Shown: one piece after another, positions 1-37,730 of the stretch
Layout of the letters: every line of letters starts with the position of its first letter
Numbering within the stretch: position 1 is the stretch's first letter
NCBI GenBank assembly: GCA_951406725.2
Contig: OX597838.1
Span: 13,516,001-13,580,000, forward strand
DNA: 64,000 nt
Direction of reading: 5' to 3'
Source of the DNA: Octopus vulgaris
Lineage: Eukaryota
Translations under genes and position numbers: made by a program
Notes under the pieces: generated by a model
Databases searched by the model: none
Told to the model about the DNA's origin: nothing
Seen by the model: only the letters and a program-made list of their open reading frames with translations

Positions 1-270
1 AGAATTGTTTATGACGATTTGAACAGGTGTAAAGTTTGTTCCCAGGTTGCTCAGTGATGGTAACCAACTACTTGACAAAGATGGGTATCAAAACTGTCCC
101 TCACCCCCTCCTTACAGTCCAGACCTTGCTCCCTTTGACTTTTGGCTGTTCCCCAAGCTGTAGGAGAACCTCGAGAGCAGTTGTTTTGAAGATGAAAGAG
201 GCTGTGACAAGAGTCCTGGACACCTTTACTTTAGAGAACTTTAACTTCCATGGCGCTTTCATGAAGTAAC
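1..270 (+). mobile_element. mariner transposase C-terminal remnant
   Basis: Frameshifted translation gives HP..PYSPDLAPFDFWLFPKL, the mariner YSPDLAPxD motif; stops and frameshifts present. Confidence 0.75.
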
Positions 271-4698: not shown

Positions 4699-5143
4699 CT
4701 TACAGAAAATTCGTACTATTGGAACGAAATTGGCAAAAGGATTTGGCATGTTGATGGGGAGGAGGTACATGTACCTGACAGGTGTCGAGGATAAAGTGGT
4801 GTATGTTTGGGACCGCAACGCTGACCTGGAGAAGCAGAAAGGTATCGTCAAATATGCTGGCCTCGTTACCATGGAAACACAGAAAGAACTGAAAGTTAGC
4901 CCCGAGCTCTCCTTGCACCCGGGAAAGATGTCTTTTGACAATCACGGGAACCTGTGGATCATAACTACAGATTACCAGTTGTACTTCAGAAATTCCACGG
5001 AGGGCGAAGGCTATGAGACAAAAATTGTGAAACTAAAAGTCGATGACTCAAGGGAAAAGCGAACCACTTCGACAGCAGCTTTAGACCGGAAGCTCCTTAT
5101 ATCGTTAATAATTGCCACGGTCATGTTGTGCATTGTTTTGTAG
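4699..5143 (+). CDS. Terminal exon of a yellow/major royal jelly protein (MRJP)-like beta-propeller protein with hydrophobic C-terminal (GPI/tail-anchor-like) segment
   Basis: Polypyrimidine tract + CAG acceptor at 4696-4698 (phase 2); non-repetitive open frame IGTKLAKGFGMLM..YMYLTGVEDKVVYVWD..LHPGKMSFDNHGNLWIITTDYQLYF..TKIVKLKV resembles the last blades of yellow/MRJP; ends LLISLIIATVMLCIVL*; AATAAA at 5195-5200. No upstream exons identified in the window. Confidence 0.65.
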
Positions 5144-21124: not shown

Positions 21125-21229
21125 TTACACTTTGTCATTGTTCTCCAGGTTATACTCGATCAAAAGAGACTTAAATACTTCCAGGTTGCTTGATAACGAG
21201 TCCAGGTAGACCTGAAGGTCATTAATGAA
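21125..21229 (-). CDS. GLTP: GLTP coding exon 6
   Basis: FINDLQVYLDSLSSNLEVFKSLLIEYNLENNDKV*; acceptor ttccag. Confidence 0.88.
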   Translation of the reverse strand, partial: FINDLQVYLDSLSSNLEVFKSLLIEYNLENNDKV

Positions 21230-24200
21230 CTGGAATTCAATGGAAAAATATATATAAATATATTACACATATAACTTGAAAAATTGTGCTTGAAGGCATG
21301 ACACATTACCAAAAATTTGGGCTCAAAAAAGATAGTGCTACATTCCACTCCTATACTCTATGCCAGCATTTCTCAACTGGGGTTCTCCAGAAACCCTAGG
21401 GTTCTGTGAGAAAGAGTGAGATAGGCTAATGCAGTCCCACTGCATGGCATCTTGGGCAAATGTCTTCTATCACAGCCCCATGTTGACCTAAGCCTTTTGA
21501 GTAGATTTGGCAGACAGCAGCTGAAAGGAGGTTCTCATATACATATATCATCATCATAATTGCTTCCTAGCTACATGGTTTCGGGTTCAGTCCCACTGCG
21601 TGGCACTTTGGGTAGGTGTCTTCCACTATAGCCCCGAGCCGACCGGAGCTTTGTGATTGAATTCGGTAGGTGGAAGTTACTGCCGTGTGTGTATGTGTGC
21701 GTATAGCTGCTCAGTGCCTCTCCGAAAGAGAGAGAGAGGGATAATTATATATAAATAAAATGACAGTGGCACATAAAAGCACTCATGTGGTGACACGTAA
21801 AAGCGCCCATGCAGTACCACGTAAAAGTGCCCGTGCAGTACCACGTAAAAGCGCCCGTGCAGTACCACGTAAAAGTGCCTGTGCAGTACCACGTAAAAGC
21901 GCCTGTGCGGTACCACGTAAAAGTGCCTGTGCAGTACCACGTAAAAGTGCCTGTGCAGTACCACGTAAAAGCGCCCGTGCAGTACCACGTAAAAGTGCCT
22001 GTGCAGTACCACGTAAAAGCACCCGTGCAGTACCACGTAAAAGCACCCAGCACACTGTGTTAAGTTGTTAGCATTTGGAAGGGAATCCAGCTGTAGAACC
22101 CATGCTAAAATAGGCAGGAGTCTGGTGCAGTCTCACTGGCTTGCCAGCTCTGGTCACACATTTGTCGGCGCTAATCCAACCCATGCCAGCATGGACAACA
22201 GATATTTAATGATGATGAGTCTATATAAACACACACGTGTTGTTCATGCCTCGAAATCATGGTTGTTAAAGAACAACCAGCACTGTCGTTTAACTGATGT
22301 TTGTTTCCAGCATTCTGTGAAAAACCGCTCTATGTTACGCTGGTGAGACCCATATTGGAGTACGGGATCCAAGCCCTTTCTCCTTATCTCCTCAAAGACA
22401 TACATCATCTTGAAAGAGTCCAGAAGCTGGCTACCCGCATGGTTCTTGGTCTCAAGCATTTGTCTTATGAAGAAAGGCTGAAGACGCTCGACCTTTATTC
22501 TCTAGAAAAACGACGACGCCATGGTGATCTCATTCTCGCTCACAACATCATAAGCGGAAAGTGTAACCTCTCGAAAGAGCTGTTCTTCACTCCTGCTCCA
22601 GAGTGTAGGCTGCAGAGTCACTCCGAAAAGCTCTATCTGCGACGATTTCATCTCAATCGAAGGAGAGGGGCTTTCTTCGTCCGGGTTGCGGATCCGTGGA
22701 ATAAGCTACCGGACGAGATAGTGAAGATGCCGACGACCACTCGGTTCAAAGTCTCTCTTAACCAGAAATGGCCTGAACTCTTTGCATGAACACCCTCCCT
22801 GTACATAACTCCATGTCCCCCTACATGGCCTTGCTTTTTGCTTTTTGAGCCAAAAAATTAACTTAACTTAACTGACATTTGGCCATGGGGAAATAAATGC
22901 TGTTGGGTATCAAACTCATGACTTTATGATCATGAGCTGAATGCCCTAACCACTAAGCCATGTGCCTTCACAAAAGCCAGAATGTTATGAGTGGTAACAA
23001 AATATGGGCAGACAATTCGTTCAGTACTGTCTGTCCATGGGGGAAATATTACTTTACTTGGAATGTATACTGAACCAATTCTAGCATGCAATCGTTGAGT
23101 AAATAATTTAGTTAACCCACCTGTTCTTCATCTAAGTTGGTACCGTTACACAAAATGTTCATAAGGCCCGTACGGCTTGGGGCTGCTATTGAAATAATCT
23201 GGTGAAAGAGAGAGAAATATTGTAAAGGGTAACAGAAACAGCAATAACAACAGCAATGATGAAACAAGTTGGACACAAGCCAAAGCAAGAGCATCCTGAC
23301 CTGCTAGAAATAGCAGCCATATCCTCAAGGCTATTTTGAGTAATGAAACGCAGTCCTAAATACAGGCACAGGTGTGTCTATGTAGTAAGAAGCTTGCTTC
23401 CCAACGACATGGTTCAGGGTTCTGTTCCACCTTGGGGGGCAAGTGCGTTCTACTATATAGCCTTGGGTTGACCAAAGCCTTATGAGTGTATTTGGTAGGC
23501 AGAAACTGAAAGAAGCCCATTATATACATGTGTGTGTGTAGTTGCTTCCCGTAGTCACCACTTGACAAGTAGTGTTGGTTTGTTTATGTCCCTGTGATTT
23601 AACGATTCATTAAAAGAGACCGATAGAAATAGTACCAGGCTTTAAAAAAAAAAGATAAATTCTGAGCTTGATACATTTGACTAAACACTCTTCAATGCAT
23701 TGCTCCAGCATGGCCACCGTCTAATGACTGAAACAAGTAAAGAAATAGAGATACTTTATATGAATACAGGACATGCTGCAGTTGGAAGACCTGATCATAG
23801 GAAGACCCGATCATAGTTGTCTAACATGGACAACTGGATCAAAACTGACCTGGGGATAAAAAATGATGTATGAAGTTAAGTTAGTGAAGTTAATTTTTTG
23901 GCTCAAAAAGCAAAAAGCAAGGCCATGTAGGGGGACATGGAGTTATGTACAGGGTTATATATATATATAACATCATCATAAGTTGTTGACAGTAAACACC
24001 TGTATTGTTTGTTTGGTTCCTTGGAAGCAGCTCAAAATGCACAACACCTCTGTAATCCCATCAAATTGACAGCATGACCTTTTTTGATGCAATTCACCTT
24101 TTGATGTTGTTTCTGCTGGCTCATTACGCTTGGACCATGATGGTTTTCGATTGATATTATTGTAAACAATTTATTTCCCATCACCAGTGATGACTTCTTT

Positions 24201-24661
24201 AAAAAAAAAGGGCAATTTCATTGCATTTGAGATGAATATTGCAAATATATATTGCACAGACACACAAACATACATATGTACAACAGGCTTCTTTCAGTTT
24301 CCATTTATCAAATCCACTCACAAGGCTTTGGTCGGCCCGAGGCTATAGTAGAAAACACTTGCCCAAGGTGCCACGCAGTGGAAATGAACCTGGAACCATG
24401 TGGTTGGTAAACAAGCTACTTACCACACAGCCACTCCTGCACTTATATTTAACATAATATCATATACTCTTTTACTTGTTTCAGTCATTTGACTGCGGCC
24501 ATGCTGGAGCACCGCCTTTAGTCGAGCAAATCGACCCCGGGATTTTGTAAGCCTAGTACTTATTCTATCGGTCTCTTTTGCCGAACCGCTAGGTGACGGG
24601 GACGTAAACACACCAGCATCAGTTGTCAAGCAATGCTAGGGAGACAAACACAGACACACAA

Positions 24662-24702
<41 letters not shown>

Positions 24703-26349
24703 TACGACAGGCTTCTTTCAGTTTCCATCTACCATATCCACTCAAGGCTTTGGTCGGCCCAAGGCTATAGTAGAAGACACTTGCCCAAGGTGCCACGCAG
24801 TGGAAATGAACCTGGAACCATGTGGTTGGTAAGCAAGCTACTTACCACACAGCCACTCCTGCGCTTATATTTAACATAATATCATAAGGTAACTGATATC
24901 TAAAAGATATAAAACTTTCAAGCAGGCAATGCAGCAGATCTAAAAAGCATTTAACCCTTTAGTGTTCAGATTATTCTGTTAAATGTAATACTTTTTCACT
25001 CAAATTGTTTGGAATTAATCATGCATTATCTTATAGCTTTGAGGTTTCAATGATGTCATCATCAATGTTTATTTTTAGAACGTCACTGTAGGTTAGGTGT
25101 GAGAGGCTGGATATCGCCAGTTTGAATATAAAACATGTATAATATATTGGGCCGGATGTGGCCGGTTTAAACACTAAAGGGTTAATGATAAATCCAAGAG
25201 GCATTAGAAAATGAGTGAATGAAAGACTGAGCAAATGAATGAAAGCAAAAAAAAAAAAAAAAAAAAATTCCTTACTGAAAATAGTTTCTGTACAAGCCAT
25301 CCATGGTATTGACTAAGTGTTTCATCATAGGACTTTTGAATGAGTGGATGTAGTGACTGAGATGTTTTTCCAGCTTTGTGTTCTTCCAAATATCCAGACA
25401 GAAAAACATATATGAATTCTAGAGCTCTAAAAGTAGAAATAACACCATCGTCAGGCTCGTCAATTTACTCGTTGACTCATCGTGTTAAGTGAATCTCTTT
25501 CAATTTATGTGGAACCCAAGTATCAAGCTTCTTAACAAGTCCAAGATATTTAGAATTATTTTCAATTGTTGTGCGATACATATAACACCTCTGCAATCTA
25601 TCACACACAATCAGATTCAATAATGGCTTTGATTCAGTCATCATCAACTTCAGTGGGTCGACCAGAATATTGGTCATCTTTGAGTGAAAAATCTCCAGAA
25701 TGGAATTCTTTATATCATTTCTGACATGTGCATTCTGTTAAGTAATCAATACCATAAACTTCACGTCTTTTTGTGAGTTTCACCAGCTTTCTTGCCTTTA
25801 CGGAAATAAAAGGCCAAAATATTGTGAAAATGTTTGTTTTTTGCACTCAATGTTAAAATTGACACTGAACTAACAGTTGGAGACAAAATTATGTGCAATT
25901 TGCTTCTAAAGTAAACTAAAAGTAACAGATTTCAAATGTCAAAGGGTAAAAAAATCATAACATTGACAAAAGTCATTAAAAAAAAATTGTAACTATTTAT
26001 GAAAAATGAAATTACTTTCTTGCCAACCCTAGATATATACACACACACACAAACACACATATATATATACATATATATATCACGTGATCAGATGTTGCTA
26101 CACATCGCTGGTCACAATGCGTTCGCATTGTTTTAGCCTTCGAATGACGCCACCCCGCTGGATAAGCGAGCAGGCCAATATATATATATATACATATATA
26201 CAAAATGAGAAAATGGAGAAATATATCTAAATCATTCATCAACTATCAGATAATACCGAATCATATACTTTATTAAAACACTACACAAGAGCATTAAGAT
26301 TAGACATTAATACAGTACAATAATTACAATCAATATAATGAGATATAAC

Positions 26350-26389
<40 letters not shown>

Positions 26390-29300
26390 TACATATATAT
26401 ATATATACACATACATATATGCATACTTACACATATGCACATACATATGGTTCAAATGTACAGAAAACAAAAGACCAAGACAGGTGAGGGAATAGCAAGC
26501 AGGTGTATTAATTTGACTCCCAGGAAAAATGGAAAAGTCTTTGATATTTTGAGCCTATGCTCTTTGACAGAAAAAAGATGAAAGGCAAAAAATGGAGAGA
26601 TAATGAAAAAAAATGAACAATTTGGGATTAACAGTTCTACATATTGAAATGACTGGAATAAAAGAAGCCAATGAAAGGGAAGATAACAGTGACTCATCTG
26701 AACTGAGTGTGCAAGTGCATGTGTGTGTGTATATGAGGATGTTGTGTGTGTGTGTGTGTGTGTGTGAGGGGGTGATCATAAGATTAGCACTCCACACAAA
26801 TGCATACAATAAATGTAGTTCATCATCACCAGCATCATAGTTTAGCATCCGTTTTCCATGCTAGCATGGGTTGGACGGTTCAACTGGGGTCTGGGAAACC
26901 AGAAGGCTGCACCAGGCCCAGTCTGATCTGGCAGTGTTTCTACAGCTGGATGCCCTTCCTAACGCCAACCACTCCGTGAGTGTAGTGGGTGCTTTTTACG
27001 TCGGTTGGTCGGTTGGTGCTTTTTACGTGCCACCGGCACGGAGGCCAGTCGGAATGGCGTTGGCAACGGCCACGTTCAGATGGTTCTCTGATGTGCCACC
27101 GGCACTGGTATCATAGCTACAATTTCCATTGATGTTGATCGATTTCGATTTTGATTTCAGTAGTTCTCAGGGGGGGGGGGCGGATTCAGCATGACAGTGT
27201 GTCAAGGCTGACCCTTTGAATTACAGGTACAATTCATTTTCCGTCAGCTGAGTTAACTGGAGCAGCGAGAAATAAAGTGTCTTGCTCAAGGAAGAAAGCA
27301 TTGCAAAACAAGGAGAGGGAGAAAAACATAAAAGGTGAAGATTACATATAAGAGGAAAGACATATTGCAAGGTAAGAGGAAGCAAACCCCAGCTAATCTT
27401 TATATATAAAAGTGAAGTTGTGTGTCTGTCTCCTACGATTTAGATTCCTAACTACTCCCACATTTTGCAGTGCAGTTTAACCAAAACCGGGTATCTTATA
27501 GTCGTGATTCATATCGAGCCCTTCTGGGTATTAGCACGCGTCTACGATGAGTTTACAATTTAAAAAAAAATTTACCATCAATTTTTCCCATTTTTGGCAT
27601 ATATAAGGGAAGTAACTCTCTAAAAATTTATTATTAAATCTCAGAACGTAAAAAGCTACAGTAACACCCCCTTTGTGGTTAGCCATATTGACATGGCTAT
27701 TATACTTTACATCTCTAAAAATGCTTATATAGTTATTTCCCTTACAAACCTGAGCAACGCCGGGCGATACTGCTAGTTAGAATTAAATTTATACTGGACA
27801 AAATACAGATGGAGTGCCTAAAATGATTACCTCTTCAACCAGAGTCCACTGATGCCAGCATAGTTTGTTGTCTTGTTCTCTTGTTCATCCAAGAACATTG
27901 CTTCAAGGTGGGAGAAGGTAGCAGGGTCCGTGTCATACTTGGTTTGTAGTTTCTGTAGTAAGGAGACAATTTATGAAGAACATATACAATGAGGTAAACC
28001 AGGGGTTTCCAAACTTTTTTGTTGTTATCGCCCACTTTTCCACACACAAAAATTCCCATCGCCCACCTGTGCAGTAATTTTCAGGATGCAAAAATAAAGC
28101 GCATTCAGAACGGTTGCTTAAAAAAAATGAAATATTGCAAAATGGGCATTCGGAGTTGAAACGTTATTCAGAAGAATGATGTTTTTGATTGCTAAATGTT
28201 TCTCAATGAAATAAAATTGAAAAATGATACATGTATTAAATGTTCAACAAACTCACCATTGGTTACCTATAACCTATTTCTTTATTACCCACAAGGGGCT
28301 AAACACAGCGGGGACAAACAAGGACAGACATAGGTATTAAGTCGATTTGATCGACCCCAGTGCGTAACTGGTACTTAATTAATCGACCCCAAAAGGATGA
28401 AAGGCAAAGTCGACCTCGGCGGAATTTGAACTCAGAATGTAGCGGCAGGCGAAATGCCGCTAAGCATTTCGCCTGGCGTGCTAATGATTCTGCCTTGGTT
28501 ACCTATAACCTTTGACTCATCCACTTGTATTCAGAAGATTGGAGAATTTGAATGAGTTGAGGACATTCCTGGCCATTTCATCTATTCGTCAAGAAATTGT
28601 ATTGTTACTAATTGGAATTTTCTTGGTAATCGTGTCAGACTTCTTGTGCATTAGAGTTGACAGAACTTCTTCAATGACAGGTCGAAGCAATGTTTCTCCT
28701 ACAGTGTGGGACTTCCTGGTCTTTGCGACCAGTAATGCAATATTGTACGACACAATCATACCATCATTTTCCTGTACAGTTGCTTCTGTAAACATCGTGT
28801 TCAGTGTTTTCTGCTTTTCGAAAGAAACCTTAAGTTGCCAAAAAATGACAATGGTTTGTCTTTTTTGTCAGAATACTTGGAATCAAAATGGTATTTCAAG
28901 TGTGAAGGCTTCATAGATTCATTGCTCAAAGTTTGCTGGCATAGAAGACAGTTCTGAGGAGAAGCAATAAATCCATAGGACAAATAATTAACGCTGTCCT
29001 GGTGACAAGTTTTCTTTACCGGAGGCATCAGGAAAGTAAAAATTCGAAAAAAGAATTCATAGAAGCAGAATCGGCAAAGGCAGAAATTCACAAAGCACAC
29101 TGATGTGTGTGCATCCAATGCAAGTGTAGCGACGTGGTTAATGGGTCTGGTCACTACTTTTGATCTCAGAATAGCCCTAAAAATGACTTATCATCATCAT
29201 CATCGTTTAACGTCCGTTCTCCATGCTAGCATGAGTTGGACGGTTCGACCGGGGATCTGGGAAGCCAGAAGGCTGCACCAAGCTCCAGTCTTATCTGGCG

Positions 29301-32300
29301 ATGTTTCTACAGCTGGATGCCCTTCCTAACGCCAACCACTCCGTGAGTGTAGTGGGTGCTTTTTACGTGCCACCTGCACTGGTGCCAGGCGAGGCTGGCA
29401 TCGGCCACGGTCGGATTGGTGCATTTTACGTGCCACCTGCACGGAAGCCAGTCGAGGTGGCACTGGCTTCAGCCACAATTCGGATGGTGCATTTTACATG
29501 CCACCTGCACGGAAGCCAGTCGAGGCGGCACTGGCTTCGGCCACGATTCGGATGGTGCATTTTACGTGCCACCTGCACGGAAGCCAGTCGAGGCGGCACT
29601 GGCCACATACGATAAAGATGAACGGATGAGGGAACAACAGATATAGTTTGTTCAGTGATTTCTTCCATACATGAAGTGGCAATACAGAAGTACCAGGAGT
29701 GTGTGAGCAGCAGAGGAGAGAAACGATGATATGCAAGCTGGGTCTGCCAAAGGTCAACTGGCGAAATCGTTTGAAGCCACTCTATTTATGCCAAAATAAT
29801 CATTTGATGTTTAGCCACTGTGTAGGCGTTTTATTTTGGTGACTAAAGAGTTGTTTGTCTCACTGGGGTGTGGTAGCTAGGTAGCAGATAGTGTTGTTTA
29901 GCTGTATACTACTTCCTTAGTTTAGACTAGGGAAAACATAATTACCAAAAATCCTTTATCGCCCACCATTTCTTAACCCTTTCATTACCAACCCGGCTGA
30001 AACCGGCTCTGGCTCTGAGTACAAATGTCTTGTTTTCGTAAGTTTTGAATTAAAATCTTCCATCAAACCTTGGTCACAATTTATGTTCCTAGCTGAATGA
30101 TAATTAAGTTATTTTACTAAATTCTTTGTTATATTTAAAGTAATTGAAAGAAACACAGATCATCTCAAAATAAATATAGTAATGAAAGGGTTAAAAATTT
30201 GTTTATCGCCCACCAGTGAGCGATATTGCCAGGTTGGGAAACCCTGATGTAAACATGCCATACAGCCACTGACTTTTTCCTTCTTGTTGTATCCAGGCCA
30301 ACCTAACCCCAACCCAGTAAAAATATGATCAAAGAAAAATACTCTGGCACTGAGCCTCATCGTTTACTTTGGTGGCAGGAGTCAATAAAGAACCAGTCAA
30401 GTACTGGAATTGATTTATCTTCTCTCATTCTCTCCCTTGAATCAACACTGAACACAATGTTTATGGAAGCAACTGATGGTATGATTGTGCCGTACAATAT
30501 TGATTCAACAGCACAAGACTGACCACGTCAAGAAACCCACCAATCTTTCCACTGCCCCTTCACTATTCAATGGTGCCCCCTCAGATTTACTCTACTTCAG
30601 CATTATTACAAGTGTCCACCCAGAATATTCTGAAGTACCCCCAGGTACCAAAGTCTGGCAGCAGGTCAGACACCAAATTGTCATAGTAACATTCAATTTT
30701 CTTTCTTTTTCTTGGGCAAGTGTCTTCTGCTATAGCCTCGGGCCGACCAAAGCCTTGTGAGTGGATTTGGTAGACAGAAACTGAAAGAAGCCCGTTGTAT
30801 ATATGTATATATATATGTATGTGCGTGTATGTTTGTGTGTCTGTGTTTGTCCCCCTAGCATTGCTTGACAACCGATGCTGGAGTGTTTACGTCCCCGTAA
30901 CTTAGCAGTTCGGCAATAGAGACCGATAGAATAAGTATTAGGCTTACAAAGAATAAGTCCCGGAGTCGAGTTGCTCGATTAAAGGCGGTGCTCCAGCATG
31001 GCCACAGTCAAAATGACTGAAACAAGTAAAAAGAGAGAAAGAGAGATATCTATACAGTGTGTTTCTTTCGGTTTACAATAACCAAATCCACTCACAAAGT
31101 TTCGGTTAGCACAAGGTTATAATAGAAGACACTTGCCCAAGGTGCCACCAACAGTTTGAACTTTCTTGCCCTTGGTTTGACATCTTCGACATCAGCAGTA
31201 ACGATCTGCTTAACATATTACTTGACTCTACAATCTTTTCCGTATCAACTTTAAACCAAAAGGCAGTCCGAATATATTAGAACTTGAACTCTTACCTCAA
31301 TGTTTCCAGTAATATCAGATCGAATTGGTGAGAAAGTAGTTCCAAAGCCTTCTGCAATAGAAAAGAAAATATTATCAGGACTATAACCTCATTCACCAGT
31401 GCGTAACCGGTACTTTATTTATCGACCCCGAAAGGATGAAAGGCAAAGTTGACCTCGGCGGAATTTGCTCTCCGGAATCGAACCCTAATTCCCCGTTGCC
31501 ACCACATAATTGATTTATTATCTCTCTCACTGAAATACTGGTATATTCACTTTGAATCCCTAGCTCCACTAATATAAATTACCTCCCCCATAATTACTAC
31601 CTAACTAAACCACCTTTAATATTAATTTCTATCTCTATTACACTTGCTTTTAGCATAATTTTATAAAAATCTCTTATACTAGTTAATATCTTGTACACAC
31701 AATGAGTAACCTTCTATCAACAAATGAAAATAGACAGTCTACCAATGAACAGGATATAAGTCTTTTTCAGGTAACATGTCAGAGAGATTTAGTTGAGTTA
31801 CTTGCCGTTTTTATAATGCAGCACTATTTATAACACCCACTTGCAGCTAGGTAGACTGGACAGCCAAGGCAGATAGGCTAAGTTTTTATGTTAACATGAA
31901 AATGCAATGTTCATGGTTACAGTAGAATTCTGGCGACAAAATATAAGCTACTGATCTCTCACAAGCTCAGCTGTTACCCAAACCACTCAGCCATTCATAT
32001 TCTTTCCAGACTATAAATACACAAGTGAAAATCAAAATCAAAATCGATCAACATCAATGGAAATCGTAGCAGTGATACCAGTGCCGGTGGCACATAAGAG
32101 AACCATCCGAACATGGCCATTGCCAGCACCACCCCGACTGGCCTCTGTGCCGGTGGCACGTGAAAAGCACCCACTACACTCATGGAGTGGTTGGCGTTAG
32201 GAAGGGCATCCAGCTGTAGAAACATTGCCAGATCAGACTGGGCCTGGTGCAGCCTTCTGGCTTCCCAGACCCCAGTTGAACCATCCAACCCATGCCAGCA

Positions 32301-36804: not shown

Positions 36805-37730
36805 GATGGGTTCCTTTCAGTTTCTATCTACCAAATCCACTCACAAGGCTTTAGTCAGCTCAAGGCTATAATAGAAGATACCCTAGCTGCCGTGCAGTGG
36901 GACTGAACCCAGAACCATGTGGTTGGGAAGCAAGCTTCTAAACATAGCCACGCTTGGGGATGCATTTTGAAACTTATGAAATGCTTTCAAAATGTCATTT
37001 TTTGGTTTGAATTCAATATTTACAAATTATATATCTACCTATATACACACGTTTCAATATTTTACTTTTATACACACACACATCGTATTTACTGGAGTAC
37101 AATGCCATCTTTATAAACTGTGTAATACTCACTTTTACACCTTAATATCAGTACTATTTTTTGTTTGACACTCGGGTAAAATGCTACCCCTCCGTTTTGT
37201 ACTATATTTCTCGCCTCACACAAAAGTAAATATGGTATCTATTTACCAAAATGATTTGTGTTGACAAAATCGTTAGAACATTACTGAGATATTTTGTGTT
37301 ATAATTGCTCTTAGTGGATTGATTTCGAATCTTGCTGAGACCAACTTAACATTTCATCCACTCCAGAATAAATTTAATCGTCTATATCCCTTCCCTCACA
37401 AATGTGTTGTACCTACGATTCATTAACGACCCTTTATCCTTCCATCGTTAATTAAAAAAAAAAAAAATAAGGTACTTAATAAAGTACCAAGGTCTGTTTA
37501 GAACGACACTACTTGTTTCTTTTAGAACAGTTGACGACTATTAGAAATCGCTTAAAAATTTATAATAGCAATAGATTTAGTTTTAAAATATTAGTGGTAA
37601 AAAAAAAAAAAAGTTTCTTACCTAAGAATTTGACGATGTATCGACTGGCCTGAAGAAGTTGGACAACTTCTATGTGGCCTTGGTCAGTAATTGCAGGAAA
37701 TAAATACGTGGAATCACCGAAAAATGTCAT
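21125..37730 (-). CDS. GLTP: glycolipid transfer protein, 206 aa, 6 coding exons (gene span)
   Basis: complement(join(21125-21229,23121-23198,25276-25426,27831-27952,31296-31351,37622-37730)) = 621 nt, all GT-AG, phases consistent; motifs SDITGNIEK (D48/N52/K55 of human GLTP), LWLKR (W96), YHGW (H140), C-terminal DKV. Confidence 0.92.
21795..22048. repeat. 24-bp minisatellite x~10 inside a family D element
   Basis: GCAGTACCACGTAAAAG(C/T)GCC(C/T)GT units followed by the D tail. Confidence 0.9.
22324..22875 (+). mobile_element. CR1-group LINE 3' end
   Basis: LYVTLVRPILEY..HLERVQKLATRMV..LSYEERLK..RRRHGDLI..FFVRVADPWNKLP; (TAACT)n tail; inverted short tail copy at 23872-23953. Confidence 0.88.
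23121..23198 (-). CDS. GLTP: GLTP coding exon 5
   Basis: IISIAAPSRTGLMNILCNGTNLDEEQ; cag/gtggg. Confidence 0.88.
23975..24246 (-). mobile_element. mariner transposase, catalytic half
   Basis: ICNIHLKCNEIA..VITGDGK*IVYNN..HQKKVMLSI*WDYRGVVHFELLPRNQT..YCQQL. Confidence 0.85.
25276..25426 (-). CDS. GLTP: GLTP coding exon 4
   Basis: (R)ALEFIYVFLSGYLEEHKAGKTSQSLHPLIQKSYDETLSQYHGWLVQKLFS; 151 nt; ttttag/gtaag. Confidence 0.92.
25471..26033 (-). mobile_element. mariner (mellifera-like) 5' half with TIR
   Basis: TIR-like GGGTTGGCAAGAAAGTAAT; decayed HTH (..FRKGKKAGETHKK..); ends LDTWVPHKLKEIHLTR*VN. Confidence 0.85.
27397..27776 (+). mobile_element. non-autonomous Helitron
   Basis: A|TC...hairpin-CTAG|T; same family as 7744-8145. 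Confidence 0.8.
27831..27952 (-). CDS. GLTP: GLTP coding exon 3
   Basis: KLQTKYDTDPATFSHLEAMFLDEQENKTTNYAGISGLWLK(R); tacag/gtaat. Confidence 0.92.
28000..30246 (-). mobile_element. Buster/Charlie-type hAT transposon, deleted, with nested SINE C, SINE D and MITE
   Basis: TIRs CAGGGGTTTCC / GGAAACCCTG; TSD AGGTAAAC/ATGTAAAC (nnnTAnnn); fragments YLSYGF..CLLCQQTLSNESMKPSHL and KSHTVGETLLRP..ISNNTIS. Confidence 0.88.
31296..31351 (-). CDS. GLTP: GLTP coding exon 2
   Basis: (E)GFGTTFSPIRSDITGNIE; tgcag/gtaag. Confidence 0.92.
31468..31497 (-). pseudogene. 30-nt 18S rRNA fragment fused to a SINE C 3' half
   Basis: AACGGGGAATTAGGGTTCGATTCCGGAGAG matches a conserved 18S segment (from memory). Confidence 0.7.
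32025..32335 (+). mobile_element. family D element
   Basis: D body with (GAT)n tail. Confidence 0.8.
34980..35615 (-). mobile_element. RTE LINE reverse transcriptase fragment interrupted by SINE A
   Basis: GKVAGSDAIPAEIY|KCGG..FKDVCIIHLYKRKENGLQCNNYRDISLIPFAGKIL. Confidence 0.8.
35185..35571 (+). mobile_element. tRNA-derived SINE family A
   Basis: 13-bp TSD TAGATCTCAGCAG (35172-35184 / 35572-35584). Confidence 0.9.
37622..37730 (-). CDS. GLTP: GLTP coding exon 1
   Basis: MTFFGDSTYLFPAITDQGHIEVVQLLQASRYIVKFL; ATG 1 nt after a cag acceptor; donor gtaag. Confidence 0.85.

What the first reader, a model, noticed from the sequence alone, without database searches (positions are those of the whole stretch)
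23975..26033. A conserved host exon sits inside a mariner transposase split in register
Seen: the mariner 5' half (TIR to WVPHKLKEIHLTR*VN, ending at 25471) lies upstream of GLTP exon 4. The catalytic half begins downstream at 24246 with ICNIHLKCNEI..ITGD. Mariners of this type read WVPHELKEIHLTQRIN-ICDMHLKRNEIDPFLKRIITGDEKW (recalled), so the halves abut with no gap or overlap. The intervening 1.2 kb holds exon 4, a MITE and a duplicated SINE B head whose two copies share the variant GGAAATGAACCTGG and a ~23-bp flank. Inference: the ancient exon was copied or moved into a younger transposon by template-switch rearrangement and the original was lost, replacing its upstream intron context ~45 nt from the acceptor.
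Basis: partly seen in the sequence, partly recalled or inferred. Interest (0 to 1): 0.7.

Follow-up and report, generated by a model that had tools for sequence, protein, structure and literature searches.

The report
Ancient exon relocated inside dead transposon
The only copy of an ancient exon of an octopus lipid-transfer gene sits between two exactly abutting halves of a dead jumping gene, likely because a DNA-repair accident copied the exon into a break there and the original was then lost, leaving the protein intact.

Summary
Real and non-random. On the minus strand, 26029-25472 is nt 3-576 and 24248-23976 is nt 576-848 of one mariner family; the halves overlap by 1 nt, are equally diverged (10.5% vs 10.3%) and of one subfamily. 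Between them lie 1.22 kb holding the sole copy of GLTP exon 4 (151 nt, as in vertebrates) of an intact gene. A contig from another sample and organism label bridges the upstream junction, so misassembly is unlikely. It works like a single-copy Pack-TIR made by transposition-independent gap filling (PMC8277862), but fails that paper's definition (no parental copy, one TIR). The twist is that the captured copy is now the working exon. Copy-then-loss versus cut-and-paste, and the ancestral layout, are not resolved: no outgroup locus was read. The scan's notes showed no such case on other DNA.

The parts
25472..26029 (-). Mariner 5' half, element nt 3-576, with left TIR behind a TA-rich flank
   Evidence: blastn to family majority sequence; 58 of 555 substitutions
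25427..25471 (-). 45-nt stretch before the acceptor: branch-point-like CTGAC (A at -25), no AG between it and the acceptor; its 5' part has repeated ACGA words (possible repair filler)
   Evidence: its first 23 nt are unique in G000 at up to 2 mismatches
25276..25426 (-). GLTP exon 4, 151 nt, phase 2 to phase 0, sole copy
   Evidence: vertebrate exon 4 is 151 nt (PMC2262070 Table 1)
24951..25185 (.). TTAA-flanked MITE, later insertion
   Evidence: 4 of 234 differences from the majority of its 10 nearest matches; clean empty site in a contig of organism B (record 10)
24466..24866 (-). Full-length SINE, young
   Evidence: 11 of 355 scored sites differ from the majority of other copies
24255..24464 (-). 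Duplicate of upstream flank plus SINE head, cut off in the SINE microsatellite at the junction to the mariner 3' piece
23976..24248 (-). Mariner 3' piece, element nt 576-848; nt 849-1288 and right TIR absent
   Evidence: 28 of 271 substitutions
23874..23954 (-). 81-nt 3' end of a LINE-like repeat just behind the truncation of the mariner
   Evidence: the LINE label rests on the (TAACT)n tail and shared 3' end, not on a family search
27831..27952 (-). GLTP exon 3
23121..23198 (-). GLTP exon 5
21125..21229 (-). GLTP exon 6 (to stop codon)
31296..31351 (-). GLTP exon 2
37622..37730 (-). GLTP coding exon 1

Best explanation
The sole GLTP exon 4 lies between two exactly abutting halves of one dead mariner, likely because a break in the middle of that fossil was filled with a templated copy of the neighbouring exon and its flanks, after which the original exon was likely deleted. 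Shown: one family and subfamily, register, equal divergence, single exon copy, intact gene, loss of the element's 3' third. Inferred: (1) the mariner inserted at a TA in intron 3 or 4; (2) much later, after the young SINE had inserted, a break or stalled fork at nt 576/577 was repaired by copying about 1 kb from just above the branch point through exon 4 to the SINE, with a slip back over flank plus SINE head either in the template or during the copy, and rejoined at 1-3 nt of shared sequence; (3) two copies of a 151-nt exon shift the frame, so loss of one would be favoured; if the mariner sat in intron 3, one deletion (later, or a further template jump in the same event) would remove nt 849-1288, the right TIR and the original exon together; (4) the MITE came last.
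For: Register 576/576. Divergence 58/555 vs 28/271, Fisher p=1; majority sequences from copies picked by either half differ at 3 of 1288 sites. Both halves lie in the upper tail of the family (7.2 +/- 1.6% on an unselected part, 3 of 44 copies at 10% or more). Chance model for two unrelated fragments within 2 kb, same strand, within 3 nt: 1e-6 to 4e-5 per copy for 621 to 20,000 copies. Upstream junction bridged by 40 nt in organism B, downstream junction by 26-32 nt in another sample of organism A. SINE 11/355 and heads 7/160 versus mariner 10% date the downstream junction late. Doubling exon 4 gives a stop after 179 residues, skipping it after 99. PMC8277862 (sections 8, 10, 14 read) reports the same marks for single-copy Pack-TIRs: source within 15 kb in 57%, median 2-bp microhomology, small gap, internal breakpoints, formation after the element's activity.
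Against: No parental copy or remnant exists, so the duplication stage is not seen; a non-duplicative shuffle gives the same end state. No outgroup locus was read. The late date assumes that the SINE-head/mariner junction is the primary one. 1-3 nt of overlap is within chance. The filler signal (P 0.001-0.003 for repeated 4- and 5-mers, 0.04 for 6-mers) was tested after seeing it. The chance model is not negligible genome-wide at the highest copy number (0.78 expected at 20,000 copies before asking for an exon between; 0.05 at 5,000). Divergences of the two regions within other copies correlate only weakly (rho 0.24, p=0.10, n=50), so equal divergence is modest evidence. The TA run behind nt 848 could be the original right flank, in which case that deletion did not take the old exon.
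Confidence: 0.6

Rival explanations
1. Cut-and-paste shuffle: three nearby breaks (one at mariner nt 576/577) were end-joined in swapped order, or a piece was excised as a circle and re-inserted permuted, so the exon moved without ever being doubled.
For: Explains the exact register and the absence of any second copy in one step and avoids a frameshifted intermediate.
Against: Needs three breaks within a few kb in one germ cell; does not by itself explain the duplicated flank plus SINE head at the junction, which points to DNA synthesis.
Confidence: 0.23
2. Two mariner copies (independent insertions, or a tandem duplication of the region) sat on either side of exon 4 and lost complementary halves; the register is a coincidence and the exon never moved.
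For: The family has at least 621 and 493 first-look candidates and truncated copies are common; a tandem duplication would also give equal divergence; the first stage selects for striking coincidences.
Against: Two independent deletions must meet within about 3 nt of 1288 (about 0.5%); per-copy chance 1e-6 to 4e-5 for unrelated insertions.
Confidence: 0.1
3. Misassembly at the SINE or microsatellite repeats.
For: Both junction regions lie among high-copy repeats; the downstream bridge is only at the limit of what counts (26-32 nt, record 2); no single record spans the whole stretch.
Against: Organism B's 444-nt contig runs from the SINE head through exon 4 and 40 nt into the mariner 5' half and lacks the MITE, so it is an independent allele with the same junction (record 10); the two SINE heads differ at 7 of 160 sites.
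Confidence: 0.04
4. Transposase-dependent capture: abortive gap repair after excision while the family was active.
For: The break falls at a TA dinucleotide; the left TIR is in place.
Against: The junction cuts a SINE about three times younger than the mariner; breakpoint is central with no gap, whereas PMC8277862 expects terminal breakpoints and larger gaps for this route; TA is common in this AT-rich element.
Confidence: 0.03

Closest known systems
Single-copy Pack-TIRs made by transposition-independent gap filling (Tan et al. 2021, PMC8277862; abstract, passages, sections 8, 10, 14 read; supplements not seen)
   Same: Host sequence inside one TIR element, single copy, internal breakpoint (0.45 of the length), no gap, 1-3 nt overlap, local source, likely formed after the element died; captured coding exon with flanking intron as in their ERP44/GTF2H5 case.
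   Different: No parental copy and no right TIR, so their strict pipeline would discard it; the captured exon is the constitutive coding exon of its own gene, whereas the cases in section 10 serve as retained introns, UTRs or non-coding RNA. The paper says 199 human candidates appear when the parental copy is not required; whether any replaced its parent was not seen.
FoSTeS/MMBIR complex rearrangements and polymerase-theta templated insertions (FoSTeS as used in PMC8277862 passages; theta papers seen only as search listing; rest recalled)
   Same: Several nearby junctions, short microhomology, slip-back duplication and possible patchwork filler at a junction.
   Different: Here fixed in the germ line with an intact gene product; the enzyme is not identifiable from sequence.
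Nested TE insertions into mariner fossils
   Same: Also split an element in register: 6 of 55 genomic copies examined.
   Different: Those inserts are 159-434 nt and repeat-like (5 of 6 match other loci, the sixth has TIR-like ends); this one is 1.22 kb of host gene without a long target-site duplication or poly(A) end.

Membership tests
Pack-TIR (Tan et al. 2021 definition) | 100-5000 bp of non-TE sequence between two pieces of the same TIR element | tested here: met
   1.22 kb between nt 576 and 576/577; same subfamily, equal divergence
Pack-TIR (Tan et al. 2021 definition) | Both flanks reach at least 10 bp of the element's termini | tested here: not met
   Left TIR present, nt 849-1288 with right TIR absent from the window
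Pack-TIR (Tan et al. 2021 definition) | Parental copy at 90% identity or more elsewhere in the genome | tested here: not met
   One match for the exon protein; DNA search of exon plus flanks finds only self and four low-complexity hits
Gap-filling Pack-TIR (mechanistic marks) | Internal breakpoint with small gap | tested here: met
   Position 576 of 1288, gap 0 (at most 10 nt)
Gap-filling Pack-TIR (mechanistic marks) | Microhomology at a breakpoint | tested here: inconclusive
   1-3 nt shared by the two halves; the template side is unknown without the parent
Gap-filling Pack-TIR (mechanistic marks) | Capture later than insertion: intact orthologous element in an outgroup | tested here: inconclusive
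   Indirect support from SINE age; contigs of organisms C and D showed no listed piece across either junction
mariner (D,D34D) transposon | D,D34D transposase frame, short TIRs, TA target | tested here: met
   Family majority sequence: 345-codon frame (one stop), 34 residues between second and third D, about 28-nt TIRs in TA flanks; subfamily name 'mellifera-like' is recalled, not tested
GLTP (PF08718), ortholog of vertebrate GLTP exon 4 | Domain match, 151-nt exon, conserved intron phases 1, 0, 2, 0 | tested here: met
   spliced product equals P0003 at 206 of 206 residues

The most novel reading that the evidence does not exclude
Silent exon relocation: repair of a break in a dead transposon copied a constitutive, bilaterian-old coding exon with just its branch point and acceptor, and the copy replaced the original. 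Split fossils would then act as rulers for a hidden process that re-houses old exons in new intron context without changing the protein, a class that parent-requiring Pack-TIR screens discard by design.
Probability: 0.5. Interest if true: 0.5.

Novelty: new variant of a known kind. Interest (0 to 1): 0.38.

Why it matters
If true, an exon whose size and phase are shared with vertebrates has changed its physical place within the last several million years while the protein stayed the same. Gene-structure comparisons cannot see such moves; only the split transposon records it. It suggests a genome-wide screen (sole-copy exons between in-register halves of one repeat) to measure how often local repair re-houses exons and turns over intron sequence. 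As a single case with no known effect on function it is a curiosity, not a new system.

Tried and rejected
The 99%-alike inverted pair at 23954-23874 and 22797-22873 around exon 5 looked like TIRs of a second packing element; it is two 3' ends of a common repeat with a (TAACT)n tail: rejected. Retro-insertion of pre-mRNA: no poly(A) end or long target-site duplication at the junctions: rejected. Origin of the 45-nt stretch from a repeat or from nearby DNA: unique 23-mer, longest local match 10 nt: none found. Whether the 23-nt flank is the SINE's target-site duplication: the other 13 full-length rows show 4-13 nt matches apart from 2 in pure TA runs: undecided. Contigs at 90% likeness over 23000-28000 were swamped by repeats; organism C's piece at 25608-25700 is no better than another genomic copy (95.7%), so it says nothing on the orthologous layout; the junction state in organisms C and D stays open. 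No RNA holder on record was listed and no RNA run was laid. Paper searches for a same-gene replacement case: searches gave 0 papers with all terms; searches listed none by title or abstract start; subscription journals and the supplements of PMC8277862 were not seen.

Full report
Observation. The window is G000:C25:13516001-13580000. A DNA search with the upstream piece gave 40 scored matches of 621 candidates; 29 non-self loci were aligned into a 1288-nt majority sequence with about 28-nt TIRs and a D,D34D transposase frame. Against it, window 26029-25472 (-) is nt 3-576 and 24248-23976 (-) is nt 576-848; nothing from nt 849-1288 was found in the 64 kb apart from the TIR's match to the left end and one 14-nt hit at E=0.84. 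The overlap is 1 nt, or 3 nt (CAA) if a TA was expanded; the last 10 nt of the 5' half carry 3 mismatches, so a gap of up to 10 nt cannot be excluded.

One element, not two. A second search with the 3' piece (40 scored of 493 candidates) returned several of the same copies. After dropping 3 duplicates, majority sequences from 29 copies picked by the 5' half and 26 picked by the 3' half differ at 3 of 1288 sites. The halves differ from the pooled majority at 58 of 555 (10.5%) and 28 of 271 (10.3%) sites, 8.3% each without CpG sites, Fisher p=1. On an unselected part the family averages 7.2 +/- 1.6% and 3 of 44 copies reach 10%, so both halves sit in the same upper tail; the within-copy correlation is weak, though (rho 0.24, p=0.10). 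A simple chance model gives 1e-6 to 4e-5 per copy for an unrelated second fragment within 2 kb, on the same strand and within 3 nt of register; summed over the genome that is 0.0007, 0.05 and 0.78 for 621, 5,000 and 20,000 copies, before requiring an exon between. In-register splits as such are ordinary: 6 of 55 copies have one, with 159-434-nt inserts of which 5 match other loci and 1 has TIR-like ends. What is unusual is the cargo.

The cargo. 25426-25276 is a 151-nt exon with AG/GT ends that matches Pfam GLTP (E=2.7e-11) and human GLTP residues 101-148. Six coding exons (109, 56, 122, 151, 78, 105 nt) splice to a 206-residue protein identical to P0003 (named O. vulgaris GLTP), 204/206 to O. 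sinensis and 187/206 to O. bimaculoides. Vertebrate GLTP exons are 103, 59, 134, 151, 183 nt in all 12 rows of Table 1 of PMC2262070 (passages read): same phases, same exon 4 length. The exon is therefore far older than the mariner. It is single copy; no remnant of its flanks occurs elsewhere in the window. Skipping or doubling it shifts the frame (stops after 99 and 179 residues). The 45 nt above the acceptor hold a branch-point-like CTGAC at -25 with no AG after it, so the moved piece keeps about the minimum needed for splicing (inference). Its 5' part is unique in the genome and has an excess of repeated short words (P=0.001 and 0.003 for 4- and 5-mers, 0.04 for 6-mers; tested after seeing it), which may be repair filler.

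Timing. The full SINE differs from the majority of other copies at 11 of 355 sites; its duplicated head shares 4 derived sites, one absent from 40 other copies, and differs at 7 of 160; the duplicate is cut off in its microsatellite directly at the mariner 3' piece. If that junction is the primary one, the split is no older than the SINE duplication, several times younger than the mariner. With the rate used in PMC13282606 (0.0036 per site per million years; passages read) that is roughly 30 million years for this mariner copy, 9 for the SINE and 6 for the duplication (rough; CpG sites inflate the last). The MITE is the youngest (4 of 234).

Assembly check. Of 24 runs listed I laid 4, all contigs. 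Repeats swamped most tables. Record 10 (organism B, 444 nt) covers 24843-24950 and 25182-25511: it bridges the upstream junction by 40 nt and shows a clean empty site for the MITE, so the junction predates the MITE and is not peculiar to this assembly. Record 2 (organism A, another sample, 215 nt) covers 24067-24280 and bridges the downstream junction by 26-32 nt, at the limit of the 31-nt rule. No listed piece from organisms C or D crosses either junction, which shows nothing either way. No record spans the whole stretch.

Mechanism. A central break with both ends preserved, a local insert, a slip-back duplicate at one junction and possible filler at the other fit repair by template copying into a break in a dead element (0.6). 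The original exon must then have gone; if the mariner stood in intron 3, one deletion accounts for the missing nt 849-1288, the right TIR and the old exon. This last step is inference from parsimony; the TA run behind nt 848 could equally be the old right flank. A cut-and-paste shuffle (0.23), two copies with complementary losses (0.10), misassembly (0.04) and transposase-driven capture (0.03) are the rivals.

Comparison. PMC8277862 describes 370 animal Pack-TIRs, most single-copy ones made by transposition-independent gap filling: source within 15 kb in 56.9%, median microhomology 2 bp, median gap 4.6% of the element, internal breakpoints, 13.4% exonic. This locus works like those but is not a member by their definition: no parental copy, no right TIR. 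The transcribed cases in their section 10 act as retained introns, UTRs or non-coding RNA, not as the replacement coding exon of the same gene; their discussion mentions 199 human candidates when no parent is required, and supplements that I did not see may hold a like case. My searches found no paper on same-gene replacement (none with all terms; 40, 42-44, 60: none by listing). The scan's notes gave 8 unrelated findings and two blanks.

Verdict. Observation confirmed, interpretation partly supported; a new variant of a known kind; interest 0.38. The orthologous locus in O. bimaculoides and O. sinensis would decide the history.

Noticed in passing
window 23121-23198 and 21125-21229 (-): The vertebrate last coding exon (183 nt) is split here into 78 + 105 nt by an extra phase-0 intron; O. 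sinensis isoform P0004 (180 aa) lacks the 26 residues of the 78-nt exon.
   Followed up: partly
G000:C26:35808837-35809238 (L032); G000:C2:120222065-120224299 (L034, L035): Two further GLTP-domain loci: one in a single 200-aa open frame, one in at least two exons.
   Followed up: no
window 22797-22873 (+) and 23874-23954 (-): Two young 3' ends of one LINE-like repeat, up to 99% alike, inverted around exon 5, about 1 kb apart.
   Followed up: yes
L058 and L059 (G000:C7, about 78 kb apart): Two mariner copies with the same internal deletion and truncation (nt 1-924, 1019-1071), likely a segmental duplication.
   Followed up: no
window 21722-22095: Tandem array of a 24-nt unit in intron 5.
   Followed up: no
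window 101-196 (+): Weak match to the transposase C-terminal part (50% over 32 aa, E=5e-4), probably a fragment of another mariner family.
   Followed up: no
window 23792: A contig of organism C carries a 16-nt insertion here that repeats neighbouring sequence (table 4).
   Followed up: no
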